From NCBI GenBank assembly GCA_016186955.1, contig JACPKP010000011.1, positions 12,477 through 76,476 on the forward strand: a DNA stretch of 64,000 nucleotides, given 5' to 3'. Both the position numbers and the translations under genes were made by a program. The notes below the pieces were generated by a model. The model had not been told where the DNA came from and made no database searches. It was given only the letters and a program-made list of their open reading frames with translations. Below are positions 29,996-56,020 of the stretch, one piece after another. This stretch comes from Candidatus Daviesbacteria bacterium (GTDB lineage: Bacteria; Patescibacteriota; Microgenomatia; Daviesbacterales; UBA10151). Position 1 is the stretch's first letter. Every line of letters starts with the position of its first letter.

Positions 29996-30003
29996 TAGGG
30001 ATA

Positions 30004-30031
30004 GTGTAAAGTGTAAAGTGTAAAGTGTAAA
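30004..30031. repeat. Heptanucleotide tandem repeat (GTGTAAA)x4
   Basis: gtgtaaagtgtaaagtgtaaagtgtaaa, 8 nt upstream of the ATG of 29354..29995 (minus strand). Confidence 0.8.
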
Positions 30032-30040
30032 GTAGTAACC

Positions 30041-38856: not shown

Positions 38857-40518
38857 TTATTTTTTCTCAATATTATAGAGTGGGGACTTAATTGAGACAT
38901 ACCCCGGGGCCCGCAGGTTAAAGATGGTTTTAAAATCAGCCCCTGAAATGGTGATTGAACCTGTTTGGGTTGCAAAAGTCACGCTAGCTGTGCTTCCTCC
39001 CTCTGAATACACCACCGATGCACTGCTGACAGAGGTGACTGCCCCACCATGCTGGTTGGCTTTATCCCTCATCTCTGATATGGAAAACGGGTTTCCGCTC
39101 CAGCAGGATGTATCTACCGGGGAAATCCTATCCCGCGAGTCCCCGGACTGATAAACAATCCAGGAATTTAATATATCCGACATCTCTTCGTTATTCAACC
39201 AGGGATGGGACTTGCCGCAGGACGCTCCCAAACGGTCCTTATACCAACCTTTATAAAACCAGGGTGAACCGGCGATTTTTTCAAAAGCATCACCTGTCCA
39301 GCAATTCTTTGAACCGCATTTTGTATCCCAACCGCCATTGTTGGTATAACCTCCTGTTGTGGAAGAATACTGGGCGTTTGGCCCGCCTTCCAAAACCCAC
39401 CCTTTTGTCTCATTTACAGCCTCTTCCCAAGCTCCGCCTTTGTTTGAGTCTTTATAAACCTGGCACGACTCAGTCGGGCAGATTGAACCGCCCTGGCGCA
39501 CAGCATAAGTCCTGGCTGCCACAGCCTGGGCTTTGAGGGCTTCTTTGGGAAACGAGTTGGGCATTTCATAAATCCTTTTCATATACTCATCTTCAAAATT
39601 CCTACTCCCGTACCCTGATACATTGATGGTTGCAGGCACATTATAGCTTTTATTAAGTGAGGCCCCGGGATAATAGGCTGCCAAAATCTGCTCCGCATTT
39701 TGCCCTGAATCAGCCCTGCCTTTGGCGCCGTATTGGCTCATCCCGTTGCGGTGGGTATAAGCGCCAAACGAAAACATGGCAAAAGCAGGTGAAAAACCAG
39801 GGTTGAAATCAGGCCTGGCATTACTATCATCTGCCAACGGGACATCACCAACAGAGGTGGTAAAGGTGCCTGATTTGGCAGCTAATATCGCCTGTTGCCT
39901 GGCGGAGAGTTCCGCAATTTTACCGGAGAGATCTGCCTGATAATCTTTGGCTTTTTTTATTTCCCCACCTAAAAACACGGCGTTTTTATCTACCTGAGCC
40001 TGCAGGGAAGCAAGGGAAGCCTTGTCTTTTTCCAGTTTTTCTTTCTGGCTGAGCAGATCAACAATCTCGTCCGTAATAGAAGTTATTACTTTCTGGTCCT
40101 CCCTGGTTGCTGCAAGGCGGTAGGAGAGTTCCCGGAAAATACTGGCTGAGGATTGTGAGGAAAATAAAACAGTTAAGGGGTTGGTGTGGTAAGAGCGGAT
40201 GTAATATGAGCGAACCCGCTGTTCAAGCAAAACCTGCTGAAAGGCTATTTTTTCTGTCCTGGCTTCAAGGTCTTTTTCCTTCCGGGAGATTTTATAAGAA
40301 AGGCTGTAAAGGGAAGCCTGGATTTGGGCAAGCTGGCGCTTCAAAGAATCCAGCTGGCCTTCCAAAGGTTTGGTGGCATCAACGGACATCTTTTTAGCCT
40401 TCTCAAGCTCATTTATCTGTTTTTGCAGGTCCTCTACCTCATCAGCATGAATGGGAAAAGTAACAAGTAACAAGTAACAAGTAACAAGTAACAAAAATGG
40501 AAGAATAGTTTTTCTCAT
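38857..40518 (-). CDS. SpoIID/LytB-domain cell-wall protein with N-terminal coiled coil (EnvC-like)
   Basis: Signal peptide, long coiled coil, SpoIID signature EALKAQAVAARTYAVRQ. Confidence 0.6.
   Translation of the reverse strand: MRKTILPFLLLVTCYLLLVTFPIHADEVEDLQKQINELEKAKKMSVDATKPLEGQLDSLKRQLAQIQASLYSLSYKISRKEKDLEARTEKIAFQQVLLEQRVRSYYIRSYHTNPLTVLFSSQSSASIFRELSYRLAATREDQKVITSITDEIVDLLSQKEKLEKDKASLASLQAQVDKNAVFLGGEIKKAKDYQADLSGKIAELSARQQAILAAKSGTFTTSVGDVPLADDSNARPDFNPGFSPAFAMFSFGAYTHRNGMSQYGAKGRADSGQNAEQILAAYYPGASLNKSYNVPATINVSGYGSRNFEDEYMKRIYEMPNSFPKEALKAQAVAARTYAVRQGGSICPTESCQVYKDSNKGGAWEEAVNETKGWVLEGGPNAQYSSTTGGYTNNGGWDTKCGSKNCWTGDAFEKIAGSPWFYKGWYKDRLGASCGKSHPWLNNEEMSDILNSWIVYQSGDSRDRISPVDTSCWSGNPFSISEMRDKANQHGGAVTSVSSASVVYSEGGSTASVTFATQTGSITISGADFKTIFNLRAPGYVSIKSPLYNIEKK
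40460..40494. repeat. Heptanucleotide tandem repeat (GTAACAA)x5, coding-strand TTGTTAC, inside signal-peptide codons of 38857..40518
   Basis: gtaacaagtaacaagtaacaagtaacaagtaacaa encodes LLVTCYLLLVT. Confidence 0.85.
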
Positions 40519-40579
40519 ACGAGCTCTTTAAGCCATTTTACCACGTTGACAATGATTACAAAAGTAATATAATTGTATT

Positions 40580-40876
40580 ATGCATAGAACTATACTGCAG
40601 GTTCCACTACCTAAAGATCTTAAAGAAGGGGCTGAAAAAGCAGCCTTGGATGCAGGGTTCTCTTCTTTACAAGAAGTTTTGAGGGTGTTTATGAAAAAAT
40701 TTGCAAACAAAAAAATAGATCTATCATTTGAAGAAGAAAAAGTTGTTTACCTTTCTGAAAAAGCTGAAAAAAGATATACTAAGGCTATGGAAGATTTCAG
40801 AAAAGGTAAAAATGTCTATGAAGCAAAAGATGTAGATGATCTTTTAAAACAACTGCATAGCTACAGTGAAAATTAA
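40580..40876 (+). CDS. Putative antitoxin
   Basis: 98-aa acidic protein overlapping the RelE-like gene start. Confidence 0.35.
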   Translation: MHRTILQVPLPKDLKEGAEKAALDAGFSSLQEVLRVFMKKFANKKIDLSFEEEKVVYLSEKAEKRYTKAMEDFRKGKNVYEAKDVDDLLKQLHSYSEN

Positions 40877-41129
40877 ATTCTACAAACAATTCGTTAAACA
40901 TCTTACCCAAAGAGTTAAACCCAACCCAAGTTTACTGAAAAAGTGTGATGAAAGAATCGCTTTATTTATTAAAAACCCCAAAGATCCATTACTAAAAGAC
41001 CATAAGTTAATAGGGAGGAAAGAAGACTTTAGGGCATTTTCAATTACAGGCGATATTAGAATTATCTACCGACAAGGAGAGGATTACATCTATTTTATTG
41101 ATATCGGCTCCCATAACCAAGTATATTGA
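40866..41129 (+). CDS. RelE/ParE-family toxin
   Basis: ...DHKLIGRKEDFRAFSITGDIRIIYRQGEDYIYFIDIGSHNQVY matches the RelE/StbE C-terminal pattern. Confidence 0.55.
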   Translation: MKIKFYKQFVKHLTQRVKPNPSLLKKCDERIALFIKNPKDPLLKDHKLIGRKEDFRAFSITGDIRIIYRQGEDYIYFIDIGSHNQVY

Positions 41130-41173: not shown

Positions 41174-42973
41174 TTGCCCCTCTTCAAAATGCATGGTAAG
41201 CAAAGCTTGCCATTTCATGGTAAGCTGGGGTTAATGTCCAAACTGATATCAATTTTAGCAATACAATTGTTTGGTTTATGTATTATTTTAACTCCTACTA
41301 TAATTTTTGCTGATGAATCTTGCAATGTAAGTGGTGGGGGGCAACAAGGTACGGTTACAATTACCACTAAATTACTAAACCCAGTTATACCTCCTAATTA
41401 TGAAATAACATTCGAGCTTGATCCAAACGCTTTAGATATATTACGAGACCACAATATTGGTTTAGAAACCGGAGGTGGTTTTGGTGGAAGTTCAGTATAC
41501 ACAAACCCTATATCTGTAACCACAAGTAATATTGCTTTTGTAATAAGAGCTGGAAACATCAACCCTGATAACAACGATTCTTTAAGTAAATTCACTGACC
41601 CTGGAAAACATCAAATATCTATATACGAAGCTGCAGGAGGAAGTTCCGGAAGTACCGGGCGATCCAACATATGTTTAGCTTCAGCTGTTTTTGATTATGA
41701 AATTACAAACCCGAGGGTTTTAGAATGCAGTGGACAAATCACGGATAGCTCTACTTCTCAGGGGATTAATGGTGTAGTAATTGAAGTTTATGACGGAGCT
41801 GCTGCCAGCCCAACCCGTACATATAACGTCACCTCTGATGATGGTAAGTATGCTTTCAGACCATCTTCCGGTGGTTTTGGACCTGGCTCCCAACAAACAC
41901 ATAAGGTCATTTTTAAAAACAACGATTACCAAGATTATATTGTTGATTATCTATTACCTGTTACCCCACAAGCCTGTCCAGGAAATATTTCTCTAAAATC
42001 AGTGGCTTTAAAAGGATATGTTTGTGATAAAGGAACTTGCAGAGAATCAAACCCCGGAGAATCATCTAAATACCTGGACAATAATATGTGTAGTAAAGAT
42101 TGTGGTTTATATATTTATGATACGGGGAGATTATATTGTAGACCTGCTTTACCCAATGAAACAACAGGAATAATTTACAGTAAATCAGAATGCGAGGCAA
42201 AAACTCCCCTCGCAGGTACAGATAATTGTGTATATAACAAAACAGTAAATAAATGCGTATGCAACCCTAACTCTGTATCAGGTGGACAACCTCTTACAGA
42301 ATGCCTTAAAAAAGTAACTTCTTCAATTTATTCAGGCATAGACTGTTCAAAGCCTGAAAATAAAGACAAGTGCTCAACTTCTGCAGGACAGACATGTAAT
42401 ATCAATACCAATGAGGTTATAAAAATAGAAAATATTACCGCTAAAAAAGAAGACATGCCTAACACCAGGACCAACCCCATCTCAACATGCAGCGACGGAA
42501 CAGACCTGCGGGAAGTAGACAAAAGAACTGATAACCCTAACAGTTGTAACCCTGAAGCATCCTGCTACAAGGCTGTGACAGGTACAGGAGGTTTTGCTGC
42601 ATATTTTTGCTACAGGGAGCAAAAGACAGTAGCTGCTAAAACTACATATAGTGACAAAAATGGTAATCCGATAGATATGGACTCTAAGAATTTAGGTGTT
42701 TATACTGCCATTGGGTGTATCCCCACTGAGCCCTCAGCTCTAATTACTAAGCTTTTGACATTTGCTGCGGGAGGGGCTGGGGGGATTGCCCTTTTGCTTA
42801 TGATCTTTGGGGCTTTCAGGATGACGACCTCGGCCGGCAACCCGGAGAGCTTAAAAGCAGGCCAGGAACAATTTTCCTCCGCGGTAATAGGGCTGTTGTT
42901 TATTATTTTTGCAGTGTTGTTGCTGCAGATTATCGGGGTTGATATACTGGGATTGCCTGGTTTCACCAAATAA
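41174..42973 (+). CDS. Large secreted Cys-rich protein ending in a VirB2/TrbC-like pilin module (adhesin-pilin fusion)
   Basis: Signal peptide, then about 480 aa with more than 30 Cys. The C-terminal roughly 90 aa (TFAAGGAGGIALLLMIFGAFRMTTSAGNPESLKAGQEQFSSAVIGLLFIIFAVLLLQIIG) are homologous to the five downstream small TM-loop-TM proteins. Confidence 0.45.
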   Translation: MPLFKMHGKQSLPFHGKLGLMSKLISILAIQLFGLCIILTPTIIFADESCNVSGGGQQGTVTITTKLLNPVIPPNYEITFELDPNALDILRDHNIGLETGGGFGGSSVYTNPISVTTSNIAFVIRAGNINPDNNDSLSKFTDPGKHQISIYEAAGGSSGSTGRSNICLASAVFDYEITNPRVLECSGQITDSSTSQGINGVVIEVYDGAAASPTRTYNVTSDDGKYAFRPSSGGFGPGSQQTHKVIFKNNDYQDYIVDYLLPVTPQACPGNISLKSVALKGYVCDKGTCRESNPGESSKYLDNNMCSKDCGLYIYDTGRLYCRPALPNETTGIIYSKSECEAKTPLAGTDNCVYNKTVNKCVCNPNSVSGGQPLTECLKKVTSSIYSGIDCSKPENKDKCSTSAGQTCNINTNEVIKIENITAKKEDMPNTRTNPISTCSDGTDLREVDKRTDNPNSCNPEASCYKAVTGTGGFAAYFCYREQKTVAAKTTYSDKNGNPIDMDSKNLGVYTAIGCIPTEPSALITKLLTFAAGGAGGIALLLMIFGAFRMTTSAGNPESLKAGQEQFSSAVIGLLFIIFAVLLLQIIGVDILGLPGFTK

Positions 42974-43095
42974 TCTCAAAACTCAAATATCAAATGATAA
43001 ATCTACATCTTAAATTTTAAATCTTCGCAACCTTAAGATTTTAGATTTTAATTGTAGTTTTGACATTTGAGATCTCAGATTTGAGATTTAATATT

Positions 43096-43440
43096 ATGAA
43101 CAAGCTTGCTTTGACAATTGACAACAAAACTATTTCTCCCCCAACTAGCTTTAAACCTGAATTTACTGACCTTGGCTCTGTTATTACAGCTTCATTAAAC
43201 TTAATTTTTTATATTTCAGGGATGCTTTTGTTTATCTGGTTGGCCTGGGGGATCATGCAATATATCTTTGCAGGAGGGAATAAAGAAGCCCTGGCCAAAG
43301 CCCGGACCAGGATTATCTATGCCTTGGTCGGATTCATTATAGTAGTCCTGTCTTTCACCCTCAGTGAATACATCAAAGCTGTACTTAGCCCAACCAGTTC
43401 AATCCCGCAACCGCCAATCACACCAATCACACCACCATGA
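43096..43440 (+). CDS. VirB2/TrbC-like pilin paralog 1
   Basis: Start set at MNKLAL. TM - FAGGNKEALAKARTRI - TM. Confidence 0.45.
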   Translation: MNKLALTIDNKTISPPTSFKPEFTDLGSVITASLNLIFYISGMLLFIWLAWGIMQYIFAGGNKEALAKARTRIIYALVGFIIVVLSFTLSEYIKAVLSPTSSIPQPPITPITPP

Positions 43441-43805
43441 TTAAAAAGTTAGCCTTCATTAGTATAACGGTTATAACGTTTATAAATATTATATTTACAC
43501 ACCCTGTCTATGCTGAAGACCTTAAAAAACAATATGGTTTTGGCTGGATCACCAGTTTGGGGGATGTTATCAGCCGTAACATTGTCCCGGCCGGTTTTGA
43601 GATTGCCGGGATTGCACTCCTTTTTTATATAGTCATAGCAGCCATAAAGTACATGACCTCAGGCGGTGATAAAGAAGCTGTAGCTTCTGCCCGTGGCATG
43701 ATTACCCATTCTGTGATAGGATTTTTAATGCTGATATTTTTATTTTTATTTTTGCAGTACATCCTGCCCGCAATCGGGCTTAAAAATTTTATTATTGTAA
43801 GATAA
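43437..43805 (+). CDS. VirB2/TrbC-like pilin paralog 2
   Basis: Signal peptide (…THPVYA), then TM - MTSGGDKEAVASARGMIT - TM. Confidence 0.5.
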   Translation: MIKKLAFISITVITFINIIFTHPVYAEDLKKQYGFGWITSLGDVISRNIVPAGFEIAGIALLFYIVIAAIKYMTSGGDKEAVASARGMITHSVIGFLMLIFLFLFLQYILPAIGLKNFIIVR

Positions 43806-44125
43806 TGGCATACCTGGCAAAAAGTTTTCAAGATATTATCGGACAGATTACCCCTCCTGACCCTATCCAGGACATAGGCCGGGGAGGCCGGGGAATAAAT
43901 ACTGTCTTAAGCAATATCCTGACCATAATTTATATATTCGGGACAATCATTTTCCTATTTATGATTGTCATAAGTGCGGTTCAGTGGATTGTCTCAGGCG
44001 GTGATAAAGAAGTTGTCCAAAAAGCCCGCTCAAGGATAACTAATGCTATAATAGGTATAGTGCTTTTAGCGCTGGCAAGGTTTATTGTTTCGCTGATAGG
44101 CTCAATCACAGGGTTTAAAATCTAA
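43805..44125 (+). CDS. VirB2/TrbC-like pilin paralog 3
   Basis: TM - WIVSGGDKEVVQKARSRIT - TM. Confidence 0.5.
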   Translation: MAYLAKSFQDIIGQITPPDPIQDIGRGGRGINTVLSNILTIIYIFGTIIFLFMIVISAVQWIVSGGDKEVVQKARSRITNAIIGIVLLALARFIVSLIGSITGFKI

Positions 44126-44158
44126 ACAGTATATTGACAAACCTTAAATAACCTGCAT

Positions 44159-44587
44159 ATGATAATATTAATGAGATCAAAAGTTCTTAGTGTATTAGCT
44201 GTCGGTGCTGCTGTATTGCTAAATCCTATCTCTGTCTTTGCGCAGGATGATGTTAGAAATATTGGTTCTATAGCGCCATCTGCCAGCGGTCTTACGGGAA
44301 TTAATCCATCAACTACCTCTTTAGGTGATTTAATCAGAAATGCCCTTGTTATTATTTATATACTTGCAGCAGTAGCAGTTTTAGCTATGCTGGTTTTTGG
44401 TGCCTTCCAATGGATCACATCAGGAGGAGACAAGGAAGCTGTACAAAAAGCCAGAAGCAGGATAACTGCTGCTTTAGTCGGTATGGGTATTTTGGCTTTA
44501 GCATTATTTATCACTGTACTCATGGGACAAATATTGAATATCAATGTCTTAAATCTTCCAACCTTACCAACACTCGGTAATCCATAA
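44159..44587 (+). CDS. VirB2/TrbC-like pilin paralog 4
   Basis: Signal peptide (…VFAQ), then TM - WITSGGDKEAVQKARSRIT - TM. Confidence 0.5.
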   Translation: MIILMRSKVLSVLAVGAAVLLNPISVFAQDDVRNIGSIAPSASGLTGINPSTTSLGDLIRNALVIIYILAAVAVLAMLVFGAFQWITSGGDKEAVQKARSRITAALVGMGILALALFITVLMGQILNINVLNLPTLPTLGNP

Positions 44588-44629
44588 ACTCATTTGCCTA
44601 TTTCACTTATTCTGTAGTAATCTTAAGTT

Positions 44630-44932
44630 ATGGATGGGCCTGCCGGAATAAAACAGATACAAGAACTTATTTTGCGGGTAATAAACCTGTCTGTGGGGTT
44701 AGTGTTTTTTGTTTTGGTAATAGTCCTGGCCATAGGCGGGATTAAATTTTTAACCTCCGGGGGTGAGCAGAAAGCTGTCCAATCCGCCAAAAGCATGATT
44801 ACCTGGGGTATCCTGGGAGTTGTTTTTATGGGGCTGGCCTGGTTGATTTTAAGCCTGGTTGAAGCTTTTACAGGAGTCAAGGTAACCCAGTTTAACCTTT
44901 GTGTGTTGTTTCCAGGCGGTGTCTGCCCATGA
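44630..44932 (+). CDS. VirB2/TrbC-like pilin paralog 5
   Basis: TM - FLTSGGEQKAVQSAKSMIT - TM. Confidence 0.5.
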   Translation: MDGPAGIKQIQELILRVINLSVGLVFFVLVIVLAIGGIKFLTSGGEQKAVQSAKSMITWGILGVVFMGLAWLILSLVEAFTGVKVTQFNLCVLFPGGVCP

Positions 44933-45843
44933 TTAGTAAATTTCAAATTTCAAATTTCAAATTTCAAATTTCTTTATTTTTCCTTTTTACTTTTTCCTTT
45001 TTACTTTTTCCTTTACATGCTTTTGCCAGCCATTGTGATGCCTCAGGTAATTTTACCTCACTAAACAGCTACTGCGACCCCTCCACCAACACCATCTGGC
45101 AAGATGAGGTTGACTGCACCCATGCTGACACTGGCACAGCCTGCGCTATCCCCGCACCTGCAACCTGTCTGTACAATGAAACCTGTGACGCAGGACCGGG
45201 CCCTGCCAGCGGGGAACACACTTGCACAGGCACTAACCCAAATGAAGCCGGGCAACCCCAGTGCGGATATAACAGTGCAGTTGACCCTGCCTGCACAGCC
45301 TGCACAGCCAAAACACCTCCTGCGCCACCTGTTCCACCTCCAGCCCCGCCAGCTCCACCTGCTGGCGCCACCCCAACAGCAGCCATAGCTACAGAAAGCG
45401 CTGAGGAAGCAGCCATCAGGCATATGGATACAGGGTTAAAACCTGAGGAATTACCACAAGAAGCAGACGAGAAACCAGGGATCATCCAAATCATAGGGGA
45501 TTTTTTTAGCAATATAGGGAGGTTATTAAACAGAATGGTATCTTTTTTCCAAAATTCTCAGGGTTTGCAAACAGCCGAGCTTCCTGAACAAAATTGTAAA
45601 TCAAGCGATCCTGATAGTGCAGTAAGTAACTTTTTAGGGGATAGTGATTGTAAAGGAATCTATAACAGCACAACACCTGATGAACAAATTTTACCGAATG
45701 GAATAAAAGTCAGGGTTGGTAATATTGATATCCCAAAAACTGAACAGGCGAATGCTAAAGAGGAGGGTTTTGAGGATGCGTTTTTACCTGAAGGATGTAA
45801 TAAAATAACTACCGGTGATTGTAATATACCTATTAGCCCATAG
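44929..45843 (+). CDS. Secreted Cys-rich, Pro-rich protein
   Basis: Start set at MISKF. Signal peptide, Cys-rich module, PAPPVPPPAPPAPPA linker, second Cys-containing module. Confidence 0.4.
   Translation: MISKFQISNFKFQISLFFLFTFSFLLFPLHAFASHCDASGNFTSLNSYCDPSTNTIWQDEVDCTHADTGTACAIPAPATCLYNETCDAGPGPASGEHTCTGTNPNEAGQPQCGYNSAVDPACTACTAKTPPAPPVPPPAPPAPPAGATPTAAIATESAEEAAIRHMDTGLKPEELPQEADEKPGIIQIIGDFFSNIGRLLNRMVSFFQNSQGLQTAELPEQNCKSSDPDSAVSNFLGDSDCKGIYNSTTPDEQILPNGIKVRVGNIDIPKTEQANAKEEGFEDAFLPEGCNKITTGDCNIPISP
44938..44972. repeat. Heptanucleotide tandem repeat (TTTCAAA)x4 inside the first codons of 44929..45843
   Basis: aaatttcaaatttcaaatttcaaatttcaaatttc encodes SKFQISNFKFQIS. Confidence 0.85.
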
Positions 45844-46504: not shown

Positions 46505-48316
46505 ATGGCTGCCCGGGAGTTGGTTATTAGTTCATGGTTTGTAGTTTATAGAAAAATTTTTCTCTTTTTTGTTTTACTTGTTACTTGTTACTTGTTACTT
46601 GTTACTTATCTTCCGCCCGCTTTTGCCCAGGGAACACCTCCTGCAGCAGGTACAACTTCTGCAGCCGGTACAACCCCTGCAGCTGCCCCCTGGAACGCCC
46701 AAAACCAGTCCAATTTCACCTCTCAAACCCTCCAACATGCAATCCTTTGCGACCTGGTATTTATGAGCCCATTGGGCAGGTGTGTCGGCTTTGAAAAAGA
46801 CCCGTCCAAAAAAGACGGTGTTAAAGTAAGCCTGTACGGACCGCAGTTCGGGGGAGCGCTGGGAAGTTTGACTAATATGGCGGTTGCCCTTTACCAACCC
46901 CCAACCTCCACAGTTTATTACCTGGCTGATGTGGCCAAAGGGTTTGGGATTATCACCCCAGCCTATGCCCAGGTTACCGGCTCAGGAGCAGGGATTATAG
47001 AACCTGTTAAAAAACTGTGGGAGGTGATGCGCAATTTTGCTTATCTGGCATTTATTATTATCTTTTTGGCGATCGGTTTTATGATCATGTTCAGGCAAAA
47101 ATTAAACGCCCAGACGGTTTTGACAGTCCAGGCAGCATTACCGGGGCTGGTACTGAGCCTAATCCTGGTATTTTTAAGTTATTTTATTGCAGCTTTTTTA
47201 ATTGACCTGGCTTTTTTAAGCGTCCAGATCCTGGCTTGGCTTTTTATACAAAACGGGCTGGCAAACTCTTTTGGTGATGCAGCGGGAATACAAAGCCTGG
47301 CCCAAAATTCTAATATCCTGGAACTATTTAAAAACAGCTTCCGGTTTGAAGCATTTGGAGAGGTTACGGGTGGAGTATCCGGTACTGTAAATTCAGTGTT
47401 TGGCGGGTCTGCTGCAGGACCAAATGCTTTGGCTATTATCATACCTGCAATTATCGGTTCAGTTATTGCATTTTTTATTTTTCCACCTGGAGGTTTGGTC
47501 GCACTTGGTGTTACTGCTGGTGGTGGAGCTGCTGCCGGCCTTTTGGCGCCTCTTATAATAGGCCTGCTCGTGCCTTTAATATTAATTATTGCCTTGGCTA
47601 TCCAGTTTTTTAAACTGCTTTTTAAGCTGATCATGGCTTATGTCATGTTGCTGGTGACAACAATCCTCGGCCCGCTGCTGATTTTAGTCAGCGCAGTACC
47701 CGGTAAAGGAACGTCATTGTCTTTTTGGTGGAAAAACCTGCTGGGTAATGCCCTGGTTTTTCCTGCTGTATTCGGGACTTTTTTATTTGCAGGGATGATC
47801 CTGGCCACAGACCCTTCAGCTTGGAAAGCCAGCCCCCCGCTTTTTGGCGGGCTCTCCACCGAACTTTTGAGGCTGATCATCGCTTACGGGATAATACTGG
47901 GCACACCAGCTGTACCTGATATGGTAAAAAAGATGATAGGAGCAGGGGATCTTGGAGAGATAGGCAAAACAGGCGCAGCCGGGTTCTTTGCAGGGTTTGG
48001 GGTAGGCAAGGGTGCAGGGACAGCTGGAGTTAATAGATTACTGGCGCCAACTATGCAACTTAGAAATGAGCGCAGAACCTTGCAAGAACAGGCCGCTCTT
48101 GGTAAGTTAGGTCCATTGGGTGAGGCAAGGCTTGCGGCGCTTCAAAGAGGCGCTTATAATGTTTATCCAACAGGGAAAAAGAACAAACAGGGTGAATATG
48201 AGAGGGATACCGAAGGTAACCTGGAAACCGAATCAAGGGGTAGAACATGGTGGCCAAGCAAGATCCAAAGATGGCTGGTTGAAACCGGAAATAAAGCCTG
48301 GTCAGGAAAAAAATAA
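46505..48316 (+). CDS. Polytopic Gly-rich membrane protein, VirB6/TrbL-like candidate
   Basis: Signal peptide, at least six TM helices and Gly-rich loops. Position within the T4SS-like locus. Family call by topology only. Confidence 0.35.
   Translation: MAARELVISSWFVVYRKIFLFFVLLVTCYLLLVTYLPPAFAQGTPPAAGTTSAAGTTPAAAPWNAQNQSNFTSQTLQHAILCDLVFMSPLGRCVGFEKDPSKKDGVKVSLYGPQFGGALGSLTNMAVALYQPPTSTVYYLADVAKGFGIITPAYAQVTGSGAGIIEPVKKLWEVMRNFAYLAFIIIFLAIGFMIMFRQKLNAQTVLTVQAALPGLVLSLILVFLSYFIAAFLIDLAFLSVQILAWLFIQNGLANSFGDAAGIQSLAQNSNILELFKNSFRFEAFGEVTGGVSGTVNSVFGGSAAGPNALAIIIPAIIGSVIAFFIFPPGGLVALGVTAGGGAAAGLLAPLIIGLLVPLILIIALAIQFFKLLFKLIMAYVMLLVTTILGPLLILVSAVPGKGTSLSFWWKNLLGNALVFPAVFGTFLFAGMILATDPSAWKASPPLFGGLSTELLRLIIAYGIILGTPAVPDMVKKMIGAGDLGEIGKTGAAGFFAGFGVGKGAGTAGVNRLLAPTMQLRNERRTLQEQAALGKLGPLGEARLAALQRGAYNVYPTGKKNKQGEYERDTEGNLETESRGRTWWPSKIQRWLVETGNKAWSGKK
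46574..46608. repeat. Heptanucleotide tandem repeat (TTACTTG)x4.9 (same unit as 40460-40494) in signal-peptide codons of 46505..48316
   Basis: ttacttgttacttgttacttgttacttgttactta encodes LLVTCYLLLVTY. Confidence 0.85.
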
Positions 48317-48444: not shown

Positions 48445-50274
48445 TTACCCTTTCTTTCTTCCTTCACCCTTCCAGACATATTCAGCAAAATTCCTGATTA
48501 GTTTGCCTTTTTCGGTCCATTGGTCGGAATCCAAATGTTCCCACATATCCTTTACTTGAGCCAATGCTTCACTGGTAGGCACTTTTAAAAAGGTGCTCTT
48601 TAATTTATCCCTTAAATCTTCTGCATTCATTAGATTATAGATAGACCATTGGAGCATTGGGGAGATAGGGTCAAACACCCTGAAATCGATTTCCTGCCAA
48701 TCTACATTGCTTAAATCAACCAGTCTTGTATATTTAGGATCAGGAATACCATATTCGTCTACTCTAATATTTCCTGCTTCATCCCTCATATATATTTTGC
48801 CAGACCAATCATATTCATAAATACCCTTCTTTTTATCAAATTTCTTTTGCTCGGGCTTAAAACCATTAAATACTTTTTCTACCCTTTCCAGAGCTGTTTT
48901 ATCTGCTTTTACATTTAATTCTTTATCTTTTTCTGCCTCTTCTTCGGCATCTTCCCTGGTCTTCCCTTTTTCCACAAGCTCTTCTATCTTAGCCTGTTTT
49001 ATCTTGTTGAATTCAATGTCATAGATTTTCTTTGGCAGTTTCGAGGTTAAGAAATCCTGGTTGCCGATATCCACGTCTGCCATAAGCTCAGGGTGAAGAT
49101 GGTAATGGTCTTTATTTTTGATCAACCACCGCTGGAAATTAAACAACCTTCTGGCAAAAAAAACACCGCCTGTGAATTTTCCCTCAATTTTTTTATCCTG
49201 TGCAGACAGCCTGCCTGTAACCATCCAAAACCTTTCCCCAAGCCTACGCGCCCATTCCAACTCTGCATTTTCATTATAATCTGTGTTTTCTTCTTTCTTT
49301 TTTCTAAGTCTTTCAGAAAATTCAGGATCACTTTCCTTTTTTCTCTTAATTATCTTTTCTACTATCTTTTTTTGAAAATCCTCCAGGGTATCTGTTTTTG
49401 AAGCCTGGATATATTCCTGCGCCCGCAGATCATATTCAACGAAAAACTCCATCACCTCCGGAATATGGATCAAGGTGTTTAAGTATTCTGCCCTGAATTG
49501 TTGAACCAGACTGGCAACAGCTTTTACATCCTGAACACTTTCAAACCTCAAAAACATCTCCCTGAATTTTTTTCTGGCCTGCAATTCATTATTTAATCTA
49601 ATTCCTATGTCATAATTTGGATCTTTCTCGTCCGTATGATTCCTCCTATATTCAGGCTCCCTCAACGCTTCTATCATACTGTCAGCACGTCTTACTGCCC
49701 TATCCGCAGCCGGATCTCCGGCTTCAGAAGAAGCCGCTTCAGATAAAGCAAGCGCATCCCTTAGGTATTTGAATTTATTTTCTCTGCTTTCAGGAACATA
49801 AACTTTTCTCTGATACCCTGAATAAGATTCAATATAGGCTATTTCAACCGGATCCTTAAATTGGTGTGGTTTGGGGTTTTCAAGACCCGGCGGATTTGTT
49901 TCTAAATGAAAGTAGTTTTCCGCCTCGCTGCTACCCCTTAGCTCTTTATGTAGTTTTTCTAAACGGTGCCATGTTTTTTTATCATCTTCCTTAATCTTCA
50001 TAGAAGACAGTGAATTTCTATCTATACCAAATGATTTTAAACCCTCTAATAAATCCTCAAGATAATCTTTTTCTGTATCTGATATCTCTGGTTTTGTTGG
50101 ATCATATCCTATTTTAATATTTTTTGGTTCTTCTAATTGGGCCAATTGCGCACTCAATGCAGCTACCTGTTGTTCAAGGGATATAATTCTTTTATCTTTT
50201 TCTGAATCATTCTCCAGATCCGGGGAAGTTGTTGATGTTTCTAATTCTTCATCCATATATCTTTCTCTGCTCAT
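48445..50274 (-). CDS. Hypothetical large soluble protein (acidic, coiled-coil N-terminus)
   Basis: 609 aa, no TM helix, no recognisable motif. Confidence 0.45.
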   Translation of the reverse strand: MSRERYMDEELETSTTSPDLENDSEKDKRIISLEQQVAALSAQLAQLEEPKNIKIGYDPTKPEISDTEKDYLEDLLEGLKSFGIDRNSLSSMKIKEDDKKTWHRLEKLHKELRGSSEAENYFHLETNPPGLENPKPHQFKDPVEIAYIESYSGYQRKVYVPESRENKFKYLRDALALSEAASSEAGDPAADRAVRRADSMIEALREPEYRRNHTDEKDPNYDIGIRLNNELQARKKFREMFLRFESVQDVKAVASLVQQFRAEYLNTLIHIPEVMEFFVEYDLRAQEYIQASKTDTLEDFQKKIVEKIIKRKKESDPEFSERLRKKKEENTDYNENAELEWARRLGERFWMVTGRLSAQDKKIEGKFTGGVFFARRLFNFQRWLIKNKDHYHLHPELMADVDIGNQDFLTSKLPKKIYDIEFNKIKQAKIEELVEKGKTREDAEEEAEKDKELNVKADKTALERVEKVFNGFKPEQKKFDKKKGIYEYDWSGKIYMRDEAGNIRVDEYGIPDPKYTRLVDLSNVDWQEIDFRVFDPISPMLQWSIYNLMNAEDLRDKLKSTFLKVPTSEALAQVKDMWEHLDSDQWTEKGKLIRNFAEYVWKGEGRKKG

Positions 50275-52297: not shown

Positions 52298-53377
52298 ATG
52301 GAAGCACATCCTGTCCCGCAAAATATAACCAATTTTGAATTCCACCTGGTTGGGGATATGACCTTAAAACAATTCGGGTATCTGGCTGGAGGTTTGGGGT
52401 TTGCATATATGATCTTTTTCCTTTTTGCCACCTCATTCCCGTTTGTTGCCTGGCCAATTGTCATAATTTCAGTAATCATCGGAATATCGTTTGCTTTTTT
52501 ACCCATCCAGGAACGCCCTCTTGACCATTGGGTTAGCGCTTTTTTTAAAGCTATTTTTAGGCCGACAAAATTTAATTATAAATCTGACATCGTTATAAAA
52601 GAGGACCCTTTTTTTAAAAAAAGGTTAGAATTTTTTCTCTCACAATTATCTGCAACCCCTGTAATTGGGCTTTCATGGGGGGATACACCTACTATAACTC
52701 CGCCTCCCCAACCTAAACCTGTTATAAAACCCGCCGTACAAGAGGTTAAAAAGGAAGCTGTCTCTCCGGCTGAACCTGTCAAACTCCCTGCCCCTGCTGA
52801 CTCTAAACTTCCAACCCAGGAAGACCTGAAAGCAACAGTCGAGCTGGCTGATAAAGCCCAAATAATCCGTAAAAAAATTACAGAAACAGAAGAGCAGTTA
52901 AGCCGGGTAAAAGCAAGGGCGATAGCGCCCGGAGAAGATAAAGAACTATTTGCTAAAGATTTCCAGGTTATTTTAAACAACCTGCAAAAATTAAACAGTG
53001 AAGCCGGCGAAATATCAAAAAAACTGGCAGTGCTTTCCAAAACGCCTATCAAAACACCAGCCATTGCCACCCCGGCAAAAAGCATGCCAACAATCAGTTT
53101 AACTGCTGTCCCTAATATCTTAAACGGGATTGTGACAGACCTTCAGGGAAATTATATAGAGGGTGCAATCCTGGTAGCCCATGACAAACAAAATTTACCT
53201 GTCCGGGCTTTAAAAACCAATAAGCTTGGCCAATTTATTGCCGCCACCCCCCTGCCCAACGGCGACTATGTTGTCACCTGCGAAAAAGATAATTTAATTT
53301 TTGACGTTATAAAAATAGAATTTTCAGGACAGGTGCTGCAACCTGTGATAATTTCAGCTAAAAAAGGAGCGCTCTGA
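52298..53377 (+). CDS. PrgI/VirB3-like two-TM protein fused to coiled coil and carboxypeptidase-regulatory-like beta-sandwich
   Basis: N-terminal GDMTLKQFGYLAGG, two TM helices and IQERPLDHWVSAFFKAIFRPTKFNY resemble the PrgI-family GLTxRQ...G.P.E.W...lrf signature. C-terminal GIVTDLQGNYIEGAIL...LPNGDYVVTCEKDN is CarboxypepD_reg-like. Confidence 0.35.
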   Translation: MEAHPVPQNITNFEFHLVGDMTLKQFGYLAGGLGFAYMIFFLFATSFPFVAWPIVIISVIIGISFAFLPIQERPLDHWVSAFFKAIFRPTKFNYKSDIVIKEDPFFKKRLEFFLSQLSATPVIGLSWGDTPTITPPPQPKPVIKPAVQEVKKEAVSPAEPVKLPAPADSKLPTQEDLKATVELADKAQIIRKKITETEEQLSRVKARAIAPGEDKELFAKDFQVILNNLQKLNSEAGEISKKLAVLSKTPIKTPAIATPAKSMPTISLTAVPNILNGIVTDLQGNYIEGAILVAHDKQNLPVRALKTNKLGQFIAATPLPNGDYVVTCEKDNLIFDVIKIEFSGQVLQPVIISAKKGAL

Positions 53378-54183
53378 TGGATACCACACAAAATTACCTG
53401 CCAATCAAAGATATTTTAAATGATTTAATTATTTTAAAAGACGGTAGTGTTTCTTGTGTGATTAAAACTTCCGCAGTCAACTTCGGTCTGATTTCAGAAA
53501 ATGAGCAGCTGGCGATTATATCCTCCTTTGCAGGACTTTTAAATTCATTGTCTTTTTCTATACAGCTGGTGATACGTTCAAAAAGGCTTGATATATCAAG
53601 CTATCTGAAACTGCTTGATGAATCAAGGAATAAACAAAACAACCCGCTGCTGCGTGATATGATGGGGCGTTACCGTACTTTTATTGAAAGTGTGATCAGG
53701 GAAAATGAGGTTTTAGATAAACAGTTTTATGTGGTGATCTCTGTTTCATACCTGGAGTTGGGGGTTATCAATAATATAGAAAAGCATTTCTCTAAAGCTA
53801 TAACAATACTCCTGCCAAGAAGGGATCATGTAATAAGGCAGCTTGAAAGAATCGGCCTTAAGGCAACTCAACTCAACACAGAAGCTCTAACCAGGCTTTT
53901 TTTTGATATTTTCAACGGGGACGGGCAACAACAACCAGACCGGAAACTTCAGGTTGAACCACTAATCACACAACCACAAACATCAGTACCAAAGGCTGCT
54001 GTGTTACTAAAACCACAAGTACAACCGCAGGCACAAACCCAACCAAAAAATCCACCGCCACAGCCGCAAACCATCAAAACACAATTTTCCCCGCCTGTCA
54101 TAAATGACCAACCAAAACCTGTCACCAGGTCATCCATGCCTTTTGTTGTAGAAGAACTGCCTGATGAATACAGCAGTGTATAA
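53377..54183 (+). CDS. VirB4 N-terminal-domain-like protein (split virB4, part 1)
   Basis: DGSVSCVIKTSAVNFGLISENEQLAIISSFAGLLNSLSFSIQLVI resembles the N-terminal domain of VirB4/TrbE. Overlaps the upstream gene (TGATGG). Ends in a Pro/Gln-rich tail 50 nt before the ATPase ORF, which is in a different frame. Confidence 0.35.
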   Translation: MDTTQNYLPIKDILNDLIILKDGSVSCVIKTSAVNFGLISENEQLAIISSFAGLLNSLSFSIQLVIRSKRLDISSYLKLLDESRNKQNNPLLRDMMGRYRTFIESVIRENEVLDKQFYVVISVSYLELGVINNIEKHFSKAITILLPRRDHVIRQLERIGLKATQLNTEALTRLFFDIFNGDGQQQPDRKLQVEPLITQPQTSVPKAAVLLKPQVQPQAQTQPKNPPPQPQTIKTQFSPPVINDQPKPVTRSSMPFVVEELPDEYSSV

Positions 54184-54232: not shown

Positions 54233-56020
54233 ATGGACATATCTTTTGTCACACCACCTAAGCCAAAAACACCCAAACAGGATTGGCCGCCTGGGGGAAA
54301 AACAGGCGGCAAACTCTCTATTGCTGATGTGCTGGCGCCGGCAGAGGTAGAGGTTGATTTTTCTTTTCTCAGGATCAACAACTCACTTTACAGGTCTTTC
54401 TTTGTTTCAGCTTACCCCCGGTACGCTGAACCAAATTGGCTTGAGCCTTTGATTGATTTTGACCATTCACTGGATATTTCAATGTTTATCTATCCCTCAA
54501 CCTCAAAAACAGTCCTGGATGACTTAAAAAGAAAGATAGCTGAGATGGAAGCCACCATCCAAACGGATATCGAAAGAGGGAGGGCTATAAATCCATCAGT
54601 GCAGGTAGCGCTTGATGATGCCAGGGCATTGCAAGACCAACTCGTAAAAGGGTCTGAAAGGTTTTTTAGGCTGGGGCTTTATATAACAGTGCCTGTGCAA
54701 AAAAAGCCCGCAGCTGATGAAGATTTAAACAATATCTCTGAGCTGGTAGAATCTACACTGGGATCCATCTCTATAACCGCCAAAAAAACCACACTCCAGA
54801 TGGAAGATGCTTTTATCTCCACTATACCTTTGGGTATAGATAGGTTGAACCTAAACCATAATATGGATACCACCTCACTTGCCACCACATTCCCTTTTAC
54901 TACATCGGAACTGACTGCAAATGAAGGGATTATGTACGGAATTAATGAACACAACGGGTCTTTGGTGGTGTTTGACAGGTTTTCCCTGGAAAACTATAAC
55001 TCTGTAGTTTTTGCAAAAGCCGGCGCCGGTAAGTCTTATTTTGTCAAGTTGGAAATTTTAAGATCCCTTATGTTTAATACACAGGTGATTGTAATTGACC
55101 CTGAGCATGAATATATTAAGCTTAGTGAGGCTGTCGGGGGAGAGTATATAAATTTCACATCAGAATCACCTGTTAAAATAAACCCTTTTGACCTCTCTAA
55201 TGTTTTAGAAAGCGGTGAAAATGAACTGGGCAGAAAAATATTAACCTTAACCGGTTTTTTAAAGCTGGTTTTAGGGGAATTAACTTCTTCACAATCCGCT
55301 GTCTTAGATAGGGCGTTATCTAACACTTACCGTCTTAAAGGGATTACCGCTGACCCCCAAACACAAAAACTGGCGCCTCCTTTAATGGAAGATTTGTATA
55401 AAGTTTTAATCGGGATGGAGGACCCTAATGCTAAAGAACTGGCATTCAGGCTGGAAAGGTTTATTAAGGGGTCGTTGGCAGGAATATTTTCTGCACCCTC
55501 AAATATTAACCTTAATAACCAAATGGTGGTTTTTTCAGTCAGGGACCTGGCTGACCAGCTCCGCCCTTTAGCTATGTACTTAATACTTGATTATATCTGG
55601 ACAAAAATCAGGGCAAACCTGCAAAAAAGGCTACTGGTTGTTGATGAAGCCTGGTATATGATGAAAAACCCTGATAGCGCGCAGTTTTTAGTAGAGATGG
55701 CCAAAAGGGCCAGGAAATATTATCTCGGGGTCACCACTATTACCCAGGATGTTGAGGATTTCCTGGCAGAAGACAGGGGTAAAGAAATTATTTCTAATTC
55801 ATCAATACAAACCCTGTTAAAACAAAGTCCTTCTTCAATTGATAAAATAGGACAAGTTTTTAACCTGTCAGAAGGGGAAAAACACCTGCTTTTATCTGCA
55901 GGTGTAGGCCAAGGCCTTTTCTTTGCCGGCCCTTCGCATGTAGCCATCCAGATAGTGGCCTCACCTGAAGAACACCAGCTGATCACCTCCAACCCTGCTG
56001 AACTTATAGCTAAAAACTAA
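54233..56020 (+). CDS. virB4: VirB4/TrbE/PrgJ-family T4SS ATPase (ATPase domains)
   Basis: YRSFFVSAYPRY...WL...ISMFIYP region, Walker A VFAKAGAGKSYFVK, Walker B LLVVDEAWYMM, C motif VTTITQDVEDF. Confidence 0.75.
   Translation: MDISFVTPPKPKTPKQDWPPGGKTGGKLSIADVLAPAEVEVDFSFLRINNSLYRSFFVSAYPRYAEPNWLEPLIDFDHSLDISMFIYPSTSKTVLDDLKRKIAEMEATIQTDIERGRAINPSVQVALDDARALQDQLVKGSERFFRLGLYITVPVQKKPAADEDLNNISELVESTLGSISITAKKTTLQMEDAFISTIPLGIDRLNLNHNMDTTSLATTFPFTTSELTANEGIMYGINEHNGSLVVFDRFSLENYNSVVFAKAGAGKSYFVKLEILRSLMFNTQVIVIDPEHEYIKLSEAVGGEYINFTSESPVKINPFDLSNVLESGENELGRKILTLTGFLKLVLGELTSSQSAVLDRALSNTYRLKGITADPQTQKLAPPLMEDLYKVLIGMEDPNAKELAFRLERFIKGSLAGIFSAPSNINLNNQMVVFSVRDLADQLRPLAMYLILDYIWTKIRANLQKRLLVVDEAWYMMKNPDSAQFLVEMAKRARKYYLGVTTITQDVEDFLAEDRGKEIISNSSIQTLLKQSPSSIDKIGQVFNLSEGEKHLLLSAGVGQGLFFAGPSHVAIQIVASPEEHQLITSNPAELIAKN

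What the first reader, a model, noticed from the sequence alone, without database searches (positions are those of the whole stretch)
41174..44932. Tandem array of five VirB2/TrbC-like pilin paralogs plus a 599-aa Cys-rich protein ending in the same pilin module
Five consecutive small genes (43096-44932) each encode signal or anchor, TM helix, the conserved loop W-[IV]-[TV]-SGG-[DE]-K-E-A-V-x-K-A-R-S-R-I-T, and a second TM helix. This is the hairpin topology of T4SS pilins. The preceding large protein has more than 30 cysteines, an N-terminal signal peptide and a C-terminal roughly 90 aa homologous to the same module (GAFRMTTSAGNPESLKAGQEQFSS). That suggests a pilin-anchored adhesin or tip protein. 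An expanded, diversified pilin repertoire with an adhesin fusion next to phase-variable genes looks like an antigenic or adhesive variation system. For a host-associated or epibiotic lifestyle it would be a host-attachment apparatus.
Basis: partly seen in the sequence, partly recalled or inferred. Interest (0 to 1): 0.75.

Follow-up and report, generated by a model that had tools for sequence, protein, structure and literature searches.

The report
Patescibacterial T4SS pilin operon, ectodomain-bearing lead pilin
This is the pilin gene array of the type IV secretion system that ultrasmall Patescibacteria carry near their replication origin, a kind of array already published; its first gene fuses a highly conserved pilin hairpin to a large surface domain that differs completely between close relatives, which makes it a candidate host-binding subunit.

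Summary
Five adjacent small genes (43096-44932) and the C-terminus of the preceding 579-aa gene all encode the two-helix module of Pfam PF18895 (T4SS_pilin). They lie in a Candidatus Daviesbacteria chromosome, upstream of a VirB6-like, PrgI/VirB3, TrsD and VirB4 cluster next to dnaN and dnaA.

Such arrays are published: 441 arrays of 2-11 pilin genes in Patescibacteria, and the array in Southlakia is essential. The array is therefore a new member of a known kind.

Three results go beyond the papers I read.
- The long pilin belongs to a very large family: 5,094 clusters at E<=1e-10, with the module always at the extreme C-terminus.
- In 80 species-level loci, a short pilin precedes the long one in only one locus.
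- Its hairpin is the best-conserved part (88% identity to the closest relative). Its 460-aa beta-rich ectodomain (22 Cys) has no detectable similarity there, although flanking genes are 77-80% identical.

The five short pilins are ancient paralogs in conserved order: the best cross-genome hit is the same position in 1237 of 1260 cases. This argues against a recently expanded antigenic-variation repertoire.

Best reading: a heteromeric VirB2-like filament or conduit with a minor, possibly tip, subunit that displays a swappable host-binding domain. No pilus has been demonstrated. The protein has 23 cysteines, not more than 30.

The parts
41234..42973 (+). Long 'lead' pilin, 579 aa (maximal ORF starts at TTG 41174). 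Layout: signal peptide, then a mosaic beta-rich ectodomain of about 460 aa with 22 Cys, then a C-terminal two-helix pilin hairpin at aa 486-579.
   Evidence: - PF18895 match at 26.5 bits; identical to NCBI HYW46_06740.
- phmmer gives 6,943 cluster representatives; nearly all of the 150 listed match only query 485-579, at their own C-terminus.
- AF2 model: helices H500-532 and H537-571, plus a transthyretin/CnaB-like sandwich at 165-272.
42972..43095 (+). Spacer between the long pilin and p1, built from two inverted heptamer-like repeat blocks. It folds into a long imperfect hairpin.
   Evidence: - TRF rows 42972-43024 and 43036-43089.
- RNA fold -30.4 kcal/mol, z = -5.6, with 0 of 200 shuffles folding as well.
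- Function not tested.
43096..43440 (+). Short pilin p1 (114 aa, no signal peptide)
   Evidence: PF18895 at 38.0 bits. Positional orthologs in 14 other genomes, 210 of 210 best hits at the same position.
43437..43805 (+). Short pilin p2 (122 aa, signal-like N-terminus). Its start overlaps the p1 stop (ATGA).
   Evidence: PF18895 at 29.6 bits. Sequence, hydropathy, positional orthology.
43805..44125 (+). Short pilin p3 (106 aa, no signal peptide). Its start shares one base with the p2 stop.
   Evidence: PF18895 at 46.9 bits.
44159..44587 (+). Short pilin p4 (142 aa, signal peptide ending in VFA, then QDD)
   Evidence: - PF18895 at 37.1 bits.
- 146 homologs, nearly all labelled PF18895 and mostly from Daviesbacteria.
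- AF2 hairpin with pLDDT above 90.
44630..44932 (+). Short pilin p5 (100 aa, no signal peptide)
   Evidence: PF18895 at 39.0 bits; 210 of 210 positional best hits.
44929..45843 (+). Secreted Cys- and Pro-rich protein (304 aa). Its start overlaps the p5 stop, and its signal peptide is encoded by the heptamer repeat (AAATTTC)x5.
   Evidence: - No Pfam or NCBIfam hit.
- Ortholog in L008 is 49% identical and has only 2 repeat units.
46505..48316 (+). Polytopic membrane protein (603 aa; signal-like segment plus at least 5 hydrophobic segments). Putative VirB6/PrgH-like assembly platform, assigned by inference from position and topology only.
   Evidence: - No Pfam or NCBIfam hit.
- Hydropathy.
- Conserved after the pilin array in L002, L004, L006 and L008.
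52298..53377 (+). PrgI (VirB3-like) protein with a CarboxypepD_reg-like C-terminal domain
   Evidence: PF12666 at 36.3 bits.
53377..54183 (+). TrsD/TraC-like protein, related to the N-terminal part of VirB4
   Evidence: NCBIfam TrsD E = 5.8e-8 and VirB4_plasma E = 6.2e-10, both below cutoff. PF26593 is recorded on the orthologs.
54233..56020 (+). VirB4-type ATPase
   Evidence: PF19044 at 99.5 bits, plus AAA_10 and DUF87.
38857..40518 (-). SpoIID-domain envelope protein, the conserved divergent neighbour of the long pilin. It carries the heptamer repeat (AAGTAAC)x5.3 in its signal-peptide codons.
   Evidence: PF08486 at 62.3 bits. Same neighbour in L002, L004 and L005. TRF.

Best explanation
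This is the pilin operon of the chromosomal, origin-proximal type IV secretion system (related to the monoderm MPF-FATA class) of a Candidatus Daviesbacteria bacterium (Microgenomatia, Patescibacteria).

Shown:
- Six genes encode the PF18895 two-helix hairpin.
- They lie next to VirB3-, TrsD- and VirB4-type genes and a polytopic VirB6-like candidate.
- The five short genes are ancient paralogs whose order is conserved across species.
- The first gene joins the best-conserved hairpin of the set to a Sec-type signal peptide and a modular, Cys-rich, beta-sandwich ectodomain. That ectodomain is replaced between close relatives.

Inferred:
- The hairpins insert into the membrane with both ends outside and the basic loop in the cytoplasm.
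- They are extracted by the VirB4/VirB3/VirB6-like machine into a heteromeric VirB2-like tube that crosses the envelope.
- The five short pilins have distinct structural roles (major and minor subunits), like the fixed sets of minor pilins in type IV pili and type II secretion.
- The long pilin is a low-copy subunit, probably the first one assembled and therefore distal. Its N-terminal ectodomain points outward and binds the host cell surface, so host range is set by ectodomain swapping rather than by switching among the paralogs.
For: - Family and context: (PF18895 six times, PrgI, TrsD-like, VirB4, DnaN, DnaA).
- Published precedent: pilin arrays of 2-11 genes near virB4 in Patescibacteria, especially Microgenomatia (PMC12102498). 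Six essential pilins in Southlakia, two of which hit both PF18895 and PF04956 (PMC10633639 Table S2). Gram-positive T4SSs have VirB2-like PrgF, modelled as a pilus on a VirB6 pentamer, and no VirB5-like tip protein was found there (bioRxiv 10.64898/2025.12.18.695078).
- Topology: hairpin, pLDDT above 90; loops with 2-4 K/R.
- Fixed specialised set: (1237 of 1260 best hits at the same position).
- Lead position of the long pilin. A short pilin lies upstream of it in 1 of 80 loci. At least one short pilin lies directly downstream in 54 of the 63 loci with enough sequence.
- Conserved hairpin, variable ectodomain: (5,094 clusters at E<=1e-10); among 140 representatives with ectodomains over 120 aa, all 9,730 C-module pairs align (63% identity) but only 314 ectodomain pairs do; against L008 the module is 88% identical, SpoIID 80% and VirB6-like 77%, and the ectodomain has no hit.
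- Surface-type fold: (transthyretin/CnaB-like sandwich; the next matches are Gram-positive pilins and an S-layer protein).
Against: - No pilus has been seen in any patescibacterium, and nothing here shows polymerisation.
- Sequence-profile links to bona fide VirB2/TrbC are absent for these six proteins: no PF04956 hit at E<=1, and hhalign against an Agrobacterium-type VirB2 profile gives probability 1%.
- The loop of the long pilin is net neutral, unlike the basic loops of the short pilins. It may therefore not pack like them.
- A tip position is pure inference.
- The long-pilin model is only moderately confident (mean pLDDT 70).
Confidence: 0.55

Rival explanations
1. Membrane-resident components only. 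The six hairpin proteins stay in the cytoplasmic membrane as part of, or accessory to, the T4SS channel. The hairpin of the long protein is simply a two-helix anchor for a cell-surface protein (adhesin, wall-binding or enzyme scaffold). No filament is formed.
For: - No homology to VirB2/TrbC could be detected here.
- Fold matches are non-specific.
- The loop of the long pilin is not basic.
- No pilus has yet been visualised in Patescibacteria or Gram-positive T4SSs.
Against: - The hairpin of the long protein is more conserved than any other part of the locus: 88% to L008 and 63% mean identity across 140 cluster representatives. That is more than a plain anchor would need.
- It is always co-encoded, in fixed order, with the short pilins.
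- Related Gram-positive PrgF was shown by labelling to expose its loop only after extrusion from the membrane.
Confidence: 0.25
2. The array is an expanded, diversifying repertoire that is switched or varied within a lineage to change antigenicity or adhesion, as proposed for the amplified virB2 paralogs of Bartonella Trw and Anaplasma.
For: - Paralogs within the array are only 20-42% identical.
- PMC12102498 itself raises this analogy.
- Heptamer tandem repeats that could switch genes on and off lie in the 5' ends of individual pilin paralogs in other genomes (L001, L002, L006, L016, L017, L027) and in three envelope genes that flank this array.
- One such repeat differs by 3 units between sister species.
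Against: - Gene number, order and identity are conserved across 15 distinct genomes, with 98% of best hits at the same position. There is no sign of recent duplication or gene conversion.
- No repeat lies inside any of the six pilin genes of this window.
- All six pilins of the Southlakia array are individually essential, which fits non-redundant roles.
Confidence: 0.1
3. Unrelated small two-helix membrane proteins (holin-like, bacteriocin immunity, ATP-synthase-c-like) that only resemble pilins.
Against: - Six matches to PF18895, and none to holin or immunity families at E<=1.
- Weak but consistent hits of all six modules to the Mycoplasma ICE 'pilin-like conjugal transfer protein' NF045849, E from 8e-7 to 0.016.
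- Conserved synteny with VirB3, VirB4 and TrsD.
Confidence: 0.03

Closest known systems
VirB2-like pilin arrays of Patescibacteria T4SS (Wang et al. 2023, PMC10633639; Quinonero-Coronel et al. 2025, PMC12102498)
   Same: - Same Pfam family (PF18895).
- Tandem array of divergent pilins.
- Lies near virB4, prgI and trsD and close to dnaA and dnaN.
- No relaxase or coupling protein was recognised among the ORFs I scanned.
- Arrays are reported as especially abundant in Microgenomatia.
   Different: The papers I read do not describe three things found here: a lead pilin with a large variable ectodomain, the conserved gene order and positional orthology of the paralogs, and the contrast between a conserved hairpin and a swapped ectodomain. 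The Southlakia array has six small pilins (up to about 185 aa) and no large one. PMC12102498 states that no adhesins were detected.
PrgF(B2) and other VirB2-like pilins of Gram-positive conjugative T4SSs (ter Beek et al. 2025, bioRxiv 10.64898/2025.12.18.695078); Mycoplasma ICE Mbov_0395 'pilin-like' family NF045849
   Same: - Monoderm MPF-FATA-type machinery.
- A protein of about 50-150 aa with two TM helices and a short charged loop, encoded near virB6.
- All six modules give sub-threshold hits over almost the whole 80-position profile of NF045849.
   Different: Those systems are reported to have one functional pilin per system and no tip protein. Here there are six paralogs, one with an ectodomain. 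The NF045849 scores (14.9-28.7 bits) are below the curated cutoff of 40.
VirB2/TrbC pilin (PF04956) plus VirB5 tip adhesin of Gram-negative T4SSs
   Same: - Hairpin topology with a basic loop.
- Dependence on a VirB4/VirB3/VirB6-type machine is inferred.
- The proposed division of labour is the same: a shaft subunit plus a distal adhesive subunit.
   Different: - No detectable sequence-profile similarity.
- No VirB5 homolog. The adhesive function would be built onto a pilin hairpin instead of a separate VirB5 fold.
- Monoderm envelope; no VirB7, VirB9 or VirB10.
Minor pilin sets of type IV pili and type II secretion pseudopili (comparison from general knowledge, not tested here)
   Same: A fixed, order-conserved set of divergent paralogs encoded together, in which one member carries a large extra domain and sits at the tip.
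   Different: Unrelated fold and machinery (type IV pilins have a single N-terminal helix plus a globular head, and use PilB/PilC). This is an analogy only.
Amplified virB2/trwL paralogs of Bartonella Trw and Anaplasma (as cited in PMC12102498)
   Same: Several VirB2-type genes in tandem within a T4SS locus.
   Different: According to PMC12102498, those amplified paralogs are thought to support immune evasion through antigenic variation or a wider range of host-cell interactions. Here the paralogs predate species divergence and keep their positions.

Membership tests
Pfam PF18895 T4SS_pilin | Whole-protein score at or above the gathering cutoff (26.6 bits): the five small proteins | tested here: met
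   38.0, 29.6, 46.9, 37.1 and 39.0 bits.
Pfam PF18895 T4SS_pilin | Whole-protein score at or above the gathering cutoff: the 579/599-aa protein | tested here: inconclusive
   26.5 bits against a cutoff of 26.6, E = 7e-6, profile positions 9-71 of 71. The database's precomputed annotation lists PF18895 for the identical protein P0001.
Patescibacterial T4SS pilin array (as defined in PMC12102498) | Two or more pilin-profile genes in tandem or separated by one gene, located near virB4 (within +/-20 CDS) | tested here: met
   Six consecutive PF18895 genes at 41234-44932. VirB4 lies at 54233-56020, nine ORFs downstream.
Patescibacterial T4SS pilin array (as defined in PMC12102498) | Low identity among array members (reported mean 25%, maximum 54%) | tested here: met
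   20-33% identity to p1. p3 to p4 is 42%, the highest.
VirB2/TrbC pilin (PF04956) | Match to the family profile | tested here: not met
   No PF04956 hit at E<=1 for any of the six. hhalign of a 67-sequence pilin profile against a 30-sequence Agrobacterium-type VirB2 profile gives probability 1%, E = 0.055, 35 columns. Indirect link only: Southlakia pilins SEML1_0018 and 0019 hit both PF18895 and PF04956.
VirB2/TrbC pilin (PF04956) | Small protein with two TM helices joined by a short charged loop | tested here: met
   AF2 helices 55-87 and 92-125 at pLDDT above 90. Hydropathy and loop charge.
VirB2/TrbC pilin (PF04956) | Polymerises into an extracellular conjugative-type pilus, with the loop lining the lumen | not testable with these tools
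   The structure tool predicts monomers only, and there are no experimental data for this lineage.
VirB2/TrbC pilin (PF04956) | Structural similarity to solved T4SS pilins | tested here: inconclusive
NCBIfam NF045849 Mbov_0395 pilin-like conjugal transfer protein (Mycoplasma ICE) | Score at or above the curated cutoff (40 bits) | tested here: not met
   14.9-28.7 bits, E from 8e-7 to 0.016, covering most of the 80-position profile in all six. This points to remote similarity, not membership.
VirB5-type pilus tip adhesin | Sequence or fold similarity to VirB5 | tested here: not met
   No VirB5-type Pfam family for the long protein. PDB fold matches are transthyretin, CnaB and Ig-like sandwiches. 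The proposal is functional analogy only.
Amplified virB2 paralogs for antigenic variation (Bartonella Trw / Anaplasma type) | Recent lineage-specific duplication, with paralogs closer to each other than to genes in other genomes | tested here: not met
   The best cross-genome hit is the same array position in 1237 of 1260 cases. Positional orthologs are 49-66% identical, within-genome paralogs about 35%.

The most novel reading that the evidence does not exclude
The long lead pilin defines a large, apparently undescribed class of T4SS pilins (more than 5,000 clusters at 50% identity). In this class a VirB2-like hairpin serves as the polymerisation or anchoring module for a swappable, modular host-recognition ectodomain. 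It would be the missing VirB5-like tip adhesin of monoderm and patescibacterial T4SSs and the main determinant of host range in Microgenomatia. The five order-conserved short pilins would build a heteromeric conduit. Heptamer-repeat slippage in signal-peptide codons would add on/off control of surface components.
Probability: 0.3. Interest if true: 0.7.

Novelty: new member of a known kind. Interest (0 to 1): 0.45.

Why it matters
The T4SS is essential for the one genetically tractable patescibacterium. Its function is described in the field as completely unknown (PMC11665869), and no adhesin or tip protein has been identified for it or for Gram-positive T4SSs.

A conserved pilin hairpin carrying a hypervariable surface domain gives a concrete, testable candidate for how these epibionts recognise hosts. 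The fixed six-gene order suggests a heteromeric structure rather than redundancy. The array itself, however, is already in the literature, and nothing here shows a pilus.

Tried and rejected
- Word-indexed homolog search with the 599-aa protein found only itself. The exhaustive phmmer search was needed.
- Profile search of the pilin alignment against PDB sequences found no match at E<=10.
- The afdb50 library was unavailable.
- hhalign against an Agrobacterium-type VirB2 profile was not significant. That profile was narrow (55-85% identity to the first sequence), so this is weak negative evidence.
- Holin or immunity readings have no profile support.
- I looked for population variation in heptamer copy number using three Logan contigs. 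They are 100% identical to the window but end inside the repeats, so they are uninformative.
- The ectodomain has no paralog elsewhere in the window.
- The polytopic 603-aa protein could not be shown to be VirB6 by Pfam or NCBIfam. PMC12102498 also notes that VirB6 is hard to detect in Microgenomatia.

Full report
**What is there.** On the + strand between 41.2 and 44.9 kb lie six consecutive genes.
- A large gene: 599 aa as a maximal TTG ORF from 41174. It is more likely 579 aa from ATG 41234, which is exactly NCBI protein HYW46_06740 of a Candidatus Daviesbacteria MAG.
- Five small genes: p1 43096-43440, p2 43437-43805, p3 43805-44125, p4 44159-44587, p5 44630-44932.

All five small proteins pass the gathering threshold of Pfam PF18895 (T4SS_pilin; 29.6-46.9 bits against 26.6). 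The last ~65 residues of the large protein hit the same model at 26.5 bits, E = 7e-6. The six modules align in register around the loop xSGG[DE]KEAVxKAR. p1/p2 and p2/p3 overlap start to stop, and the stop of p5 overlaps the start of the next gene, which suggests coupled translation.

The large protein has 23 cysteines, not more than 30. The quoted loop motif is exact only in p3 and p4. Only the large protein, p2 and p4 have signal-like N-termini.

**Context.** Downstream lie:
- a secreted Cys/Pro-rich protein;
- a 603-aa polytopic membrane protein with no family hit, a VirB6-like candidate by position and topology only;
- a PrgI (VirB3-like) protein;
- a TrsD/TraC-like protein;
- a VirB4 ATPase;
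- a DUF11 envelope protein;
- a C39-like peptidase;
- then dnaN and dnaA.

Upstream and divergent is a SpoIID-domain protein. This is the origin-proximal, MPF-FATA-related T4SS layout described for Patescibacteria (PMC12102498).

**What is already known.**
- Wang et al. 2023 reported a series of predicted pilins inside the essential T4SS cluster of Southlakia epibionticum. Their Table S2 lists six (SEML1_0014-0019), all scored essential, two of which hit both PF18895 and PF04956.
- Quinonero-Coronel et al. 2025 found 441 arrays of 2-11 pilin genes in 383 assemblies, especially in Microgenomatia and Saccharimonadia, with about 25% mean identity. They raised the antigenic-variation analogy.
- A 2025 review calls these arrays the one exception to the absence of VirB2 in monoderm systems.
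- A December 2025 preprint shows that Gram-positive T4SSs also have a VirB2-like pilin (PrgF). It is modelled as a tube on a VirB6 pentamer, and no VirB5-like tip was found.

The tandem pilin array in this window is thus a further member of a published kind.

**The large protein.** An exhaustive phmmer search of 1.84 billion cluster representatives returned 6,943 hits at E<=1e-3, of which 5,094 were at E<=1e-10. Nearly all of the 150 listed match only query residues ~485-579, at the extreme C-terminus of proteins of 137-763 aa.

In the 149 listed representatives other than the query itself:
- the module ends a median of 1 residue before the C-terminus;
- a median of 306 residues precede it;
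- 137 have a signal-like N-terminus;
- among the 140 with ectodomains over 120 aa, all 9,730 pairs of C-modules align (mean 63% identity), but only 314 pairs (3%) of ectodomains align at E<1e-3.

A scan of one genome per GTDB species found the module in 80 loci from Daviesbacteria, Gottesman-, Levy-, Roizman-, Shapiro-, Woese-, Beckwith- and Pacebacteria. A short pilin lies upstream of the long one in only 1 of the 80. At least one short pilin follows directly in 54 of the 63 loci with enough sequence. The number of short pilins ranges from 0 to 9, with modes at 1, 3 and 5.

Against the closest relative (L008), SpoIID is 80% identical, the VirB6-like protein 77%, p1, p2, p3 and p5 are 62-79% (the p4 homolog in L008 is truncated), and the hairpin of the long pilin 88%. 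The 460-aa ectodomain has no detectable similarity. The window's ectodomain is a mosaic of segments shared with different long pilins elsewhere.

The AF2 model is only moderate (mean pLDDT 70). It is beta-rich, with a confident transthyretin/CarboxypepD_reg/CnaB-like sandwich at 165-272. Structural neighbours include Gram-positive pilins and an S-layer protein. It ends in the helical hairpin 500-571.

In the papers I could search I found no description of this ectodomain-bearing lead pilin. PMC12102498 says no adhesins were detected.

**The short pilins.** In 15 distinct genomes with one long and five short pilins, the best hit of each module in another genome is the gene at the same position in 1237 of 1260 comparisons. 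Positional orthologs are 49-66% identical, against about 35% for paralogs within a genome. The set is old and fixed in order. That fits non-redundant structural roles and agrees with the individual essentiality seen in Southlakia. It does not fit a recently amplified repertoire for antigenic variation.

**Is it really VirB2-like?**
- The architecture agrees: AF2 gives two long helices at pLDDT above 90. The loops carry 2-4 Lys/Arg, so the positive-inside rule places them in the cytoplasm with both termini outside. This is the known topology of VirB2-type pilins, whose loop lines the lumen after assembly.
- Direct homology to PF04956 was not detectable: there is no hit at E<=1, and hhalign probability against an Agrobacterium-type VirB2 profile is 1%.
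- All six modules give weak hits, covering most of the profile, to the Mycoplasma ICE 'pilin-like conjugal transfer protein' NF045849 (E from 8e-7 to 0.016, below cutoff). This hints that the pilins came with the monoderm-type machinery rather than from a diderm system. That is inference.

**Mechanism proposed.** The hairpins insert with their ends outside. The VirB4/VirB3/VirB6-like machine extracts them into a heteromeric VirB2-like tube. The long pilin is a low-copy, probably distal subunit whose outward-facing N-terminal ectodomain binds the host, and host specificity evolves by replacing ectodomain modules. The loop of the long pilin is net neutral, unlike the others, which is compatible with a special position. 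It is equally compatible with the main rival, in which the hairpin merely anchors a surface protein in the membrane and no filament forms.

**Side observations.** Perfect tandem repeats of at least 4 copies in about 905 kb of these loci are almost all heptamers: 18 of 19, with none at periods 4-6 or 9-12. About half of them sit in the first 70 nt or so of envelope genes, where they encode signal-peptide residues. In this window that applies to the SpoIID-like gene, the gene after p5 and the VirB6-like gene. In other genomes it applies to individual pilin paralogs and to one long pilin. The (AAATTTC) tract has 5 units here and 2 in the L008 ortholog, an in-frame difference of 21 nt. This shows that copy number changes over evolution, and slipped-strand on/off switching is plausible but untested. 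The 122-nt spacer between the long pilin and p1 folds into a strong hairpin (z = -5.6).

**Verdict.** The finding is real and correctly assigned to T4SS pilins. The array is already known. The antigenic-variation reading is not supported. The lead pilin with its swappable ectodomain, and the positional conservation of the paralogs, are the parts worth following up.

Noticed in passing
window 40458-40494, 44938-44972, 46574-46607 (also 30003-30033); L001 10517, L002 9616, L006 7752, L016 7786, L017 4883, L027 9504: Perfect heptanucleotide tandem repeats of 4-5 units. Across about 905 kb of Microgenomatia loci, 18 of the 19 perfect tandem repeats with at least 4 copies have period 7. About half lie in signal-peptide codons of envelope genes, including pilin paralogs and one long pilin in other genomes. 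The same unit (GTTACTT, encoding LLLVTCY) occurs in two divergently oriented genes of this window. The (AAATTTC) tract has 5 units here and 2 in the L008 ortholog. This is a candidate for slipped-strand phase variation; population-level variation was not shown.
   Followed up: partly
window 42972-43095: The 122-nt spacer between the long pilin and p1 consists of two inverted heptamer-like repeat blocks. It folds into a long imperfect hairpin (-30.4 kcal/mol, z = -5.6). It could be an attenuator or an RNA-stability element that sets the long:short pilin ratio. In relatives this spacer ranges from an overlap to about 470 nt.
   Followed up: partly
window 42376-42399 and 42710-42735 (long pilin aa 381-388 and 493-500), and its last residues; A4 alignment: Long pilins share conserved motifs that flank the variable part:
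- a C-x7-C 'neck' (CSTSAGQTC here);
- G-C-[IV]-P-T-[ED]-P just before helix 1, present in 132 of 149 representatives;
- [IL]-P-G-F at the extreme C-terminus.
The Cys count before the module is odd in 84% of representatives, so the G-C-I-P cysteine may pair with the ectodomain. These could be processing or docking sites; their role is unknown.
   Followed up: no
window 40580-41129: A two-gene toxin-antitoxin-like pair (the second gene is a YafQ/ParE-type toxin, PF15738, 41 bits) is inserted between the SpoIID-like gene and the long pilin. In L002, L004 and L005 those two genes are direct neighbours. A perfect sigma-70-like promoter consensus lies at 40546-40573.
   Followed up: partly
L007, L008, L012-L014, L016, L017 and others (record titles): Many MAG records that carry this clearly patescibacterial locus are titled 'uncultured Gammaproteobacteria/Pseudomonadales bacterium'. 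This looks like mislabelled taxonomy in the public records.
   Followed up: no
L008 6143-6394: In the closest relative, the gene at position p4 is only 83 aa, and the window's p4 finds p3 as its best hit there. This may be a truncated or decaying p4 ortholog.
   Followed up: no
window 48445-50274 (-) and 51066-52073 (-): Two sizeable ORFs (609 and 335 aa) lie inside the T4SS region with no Pfam or NCBIfam hit. A minus-strand ORF of 650-810 aa occupies the same position in L002, L004 and L005, so it is probably a conserved but unannotated component.
   Followed up: no
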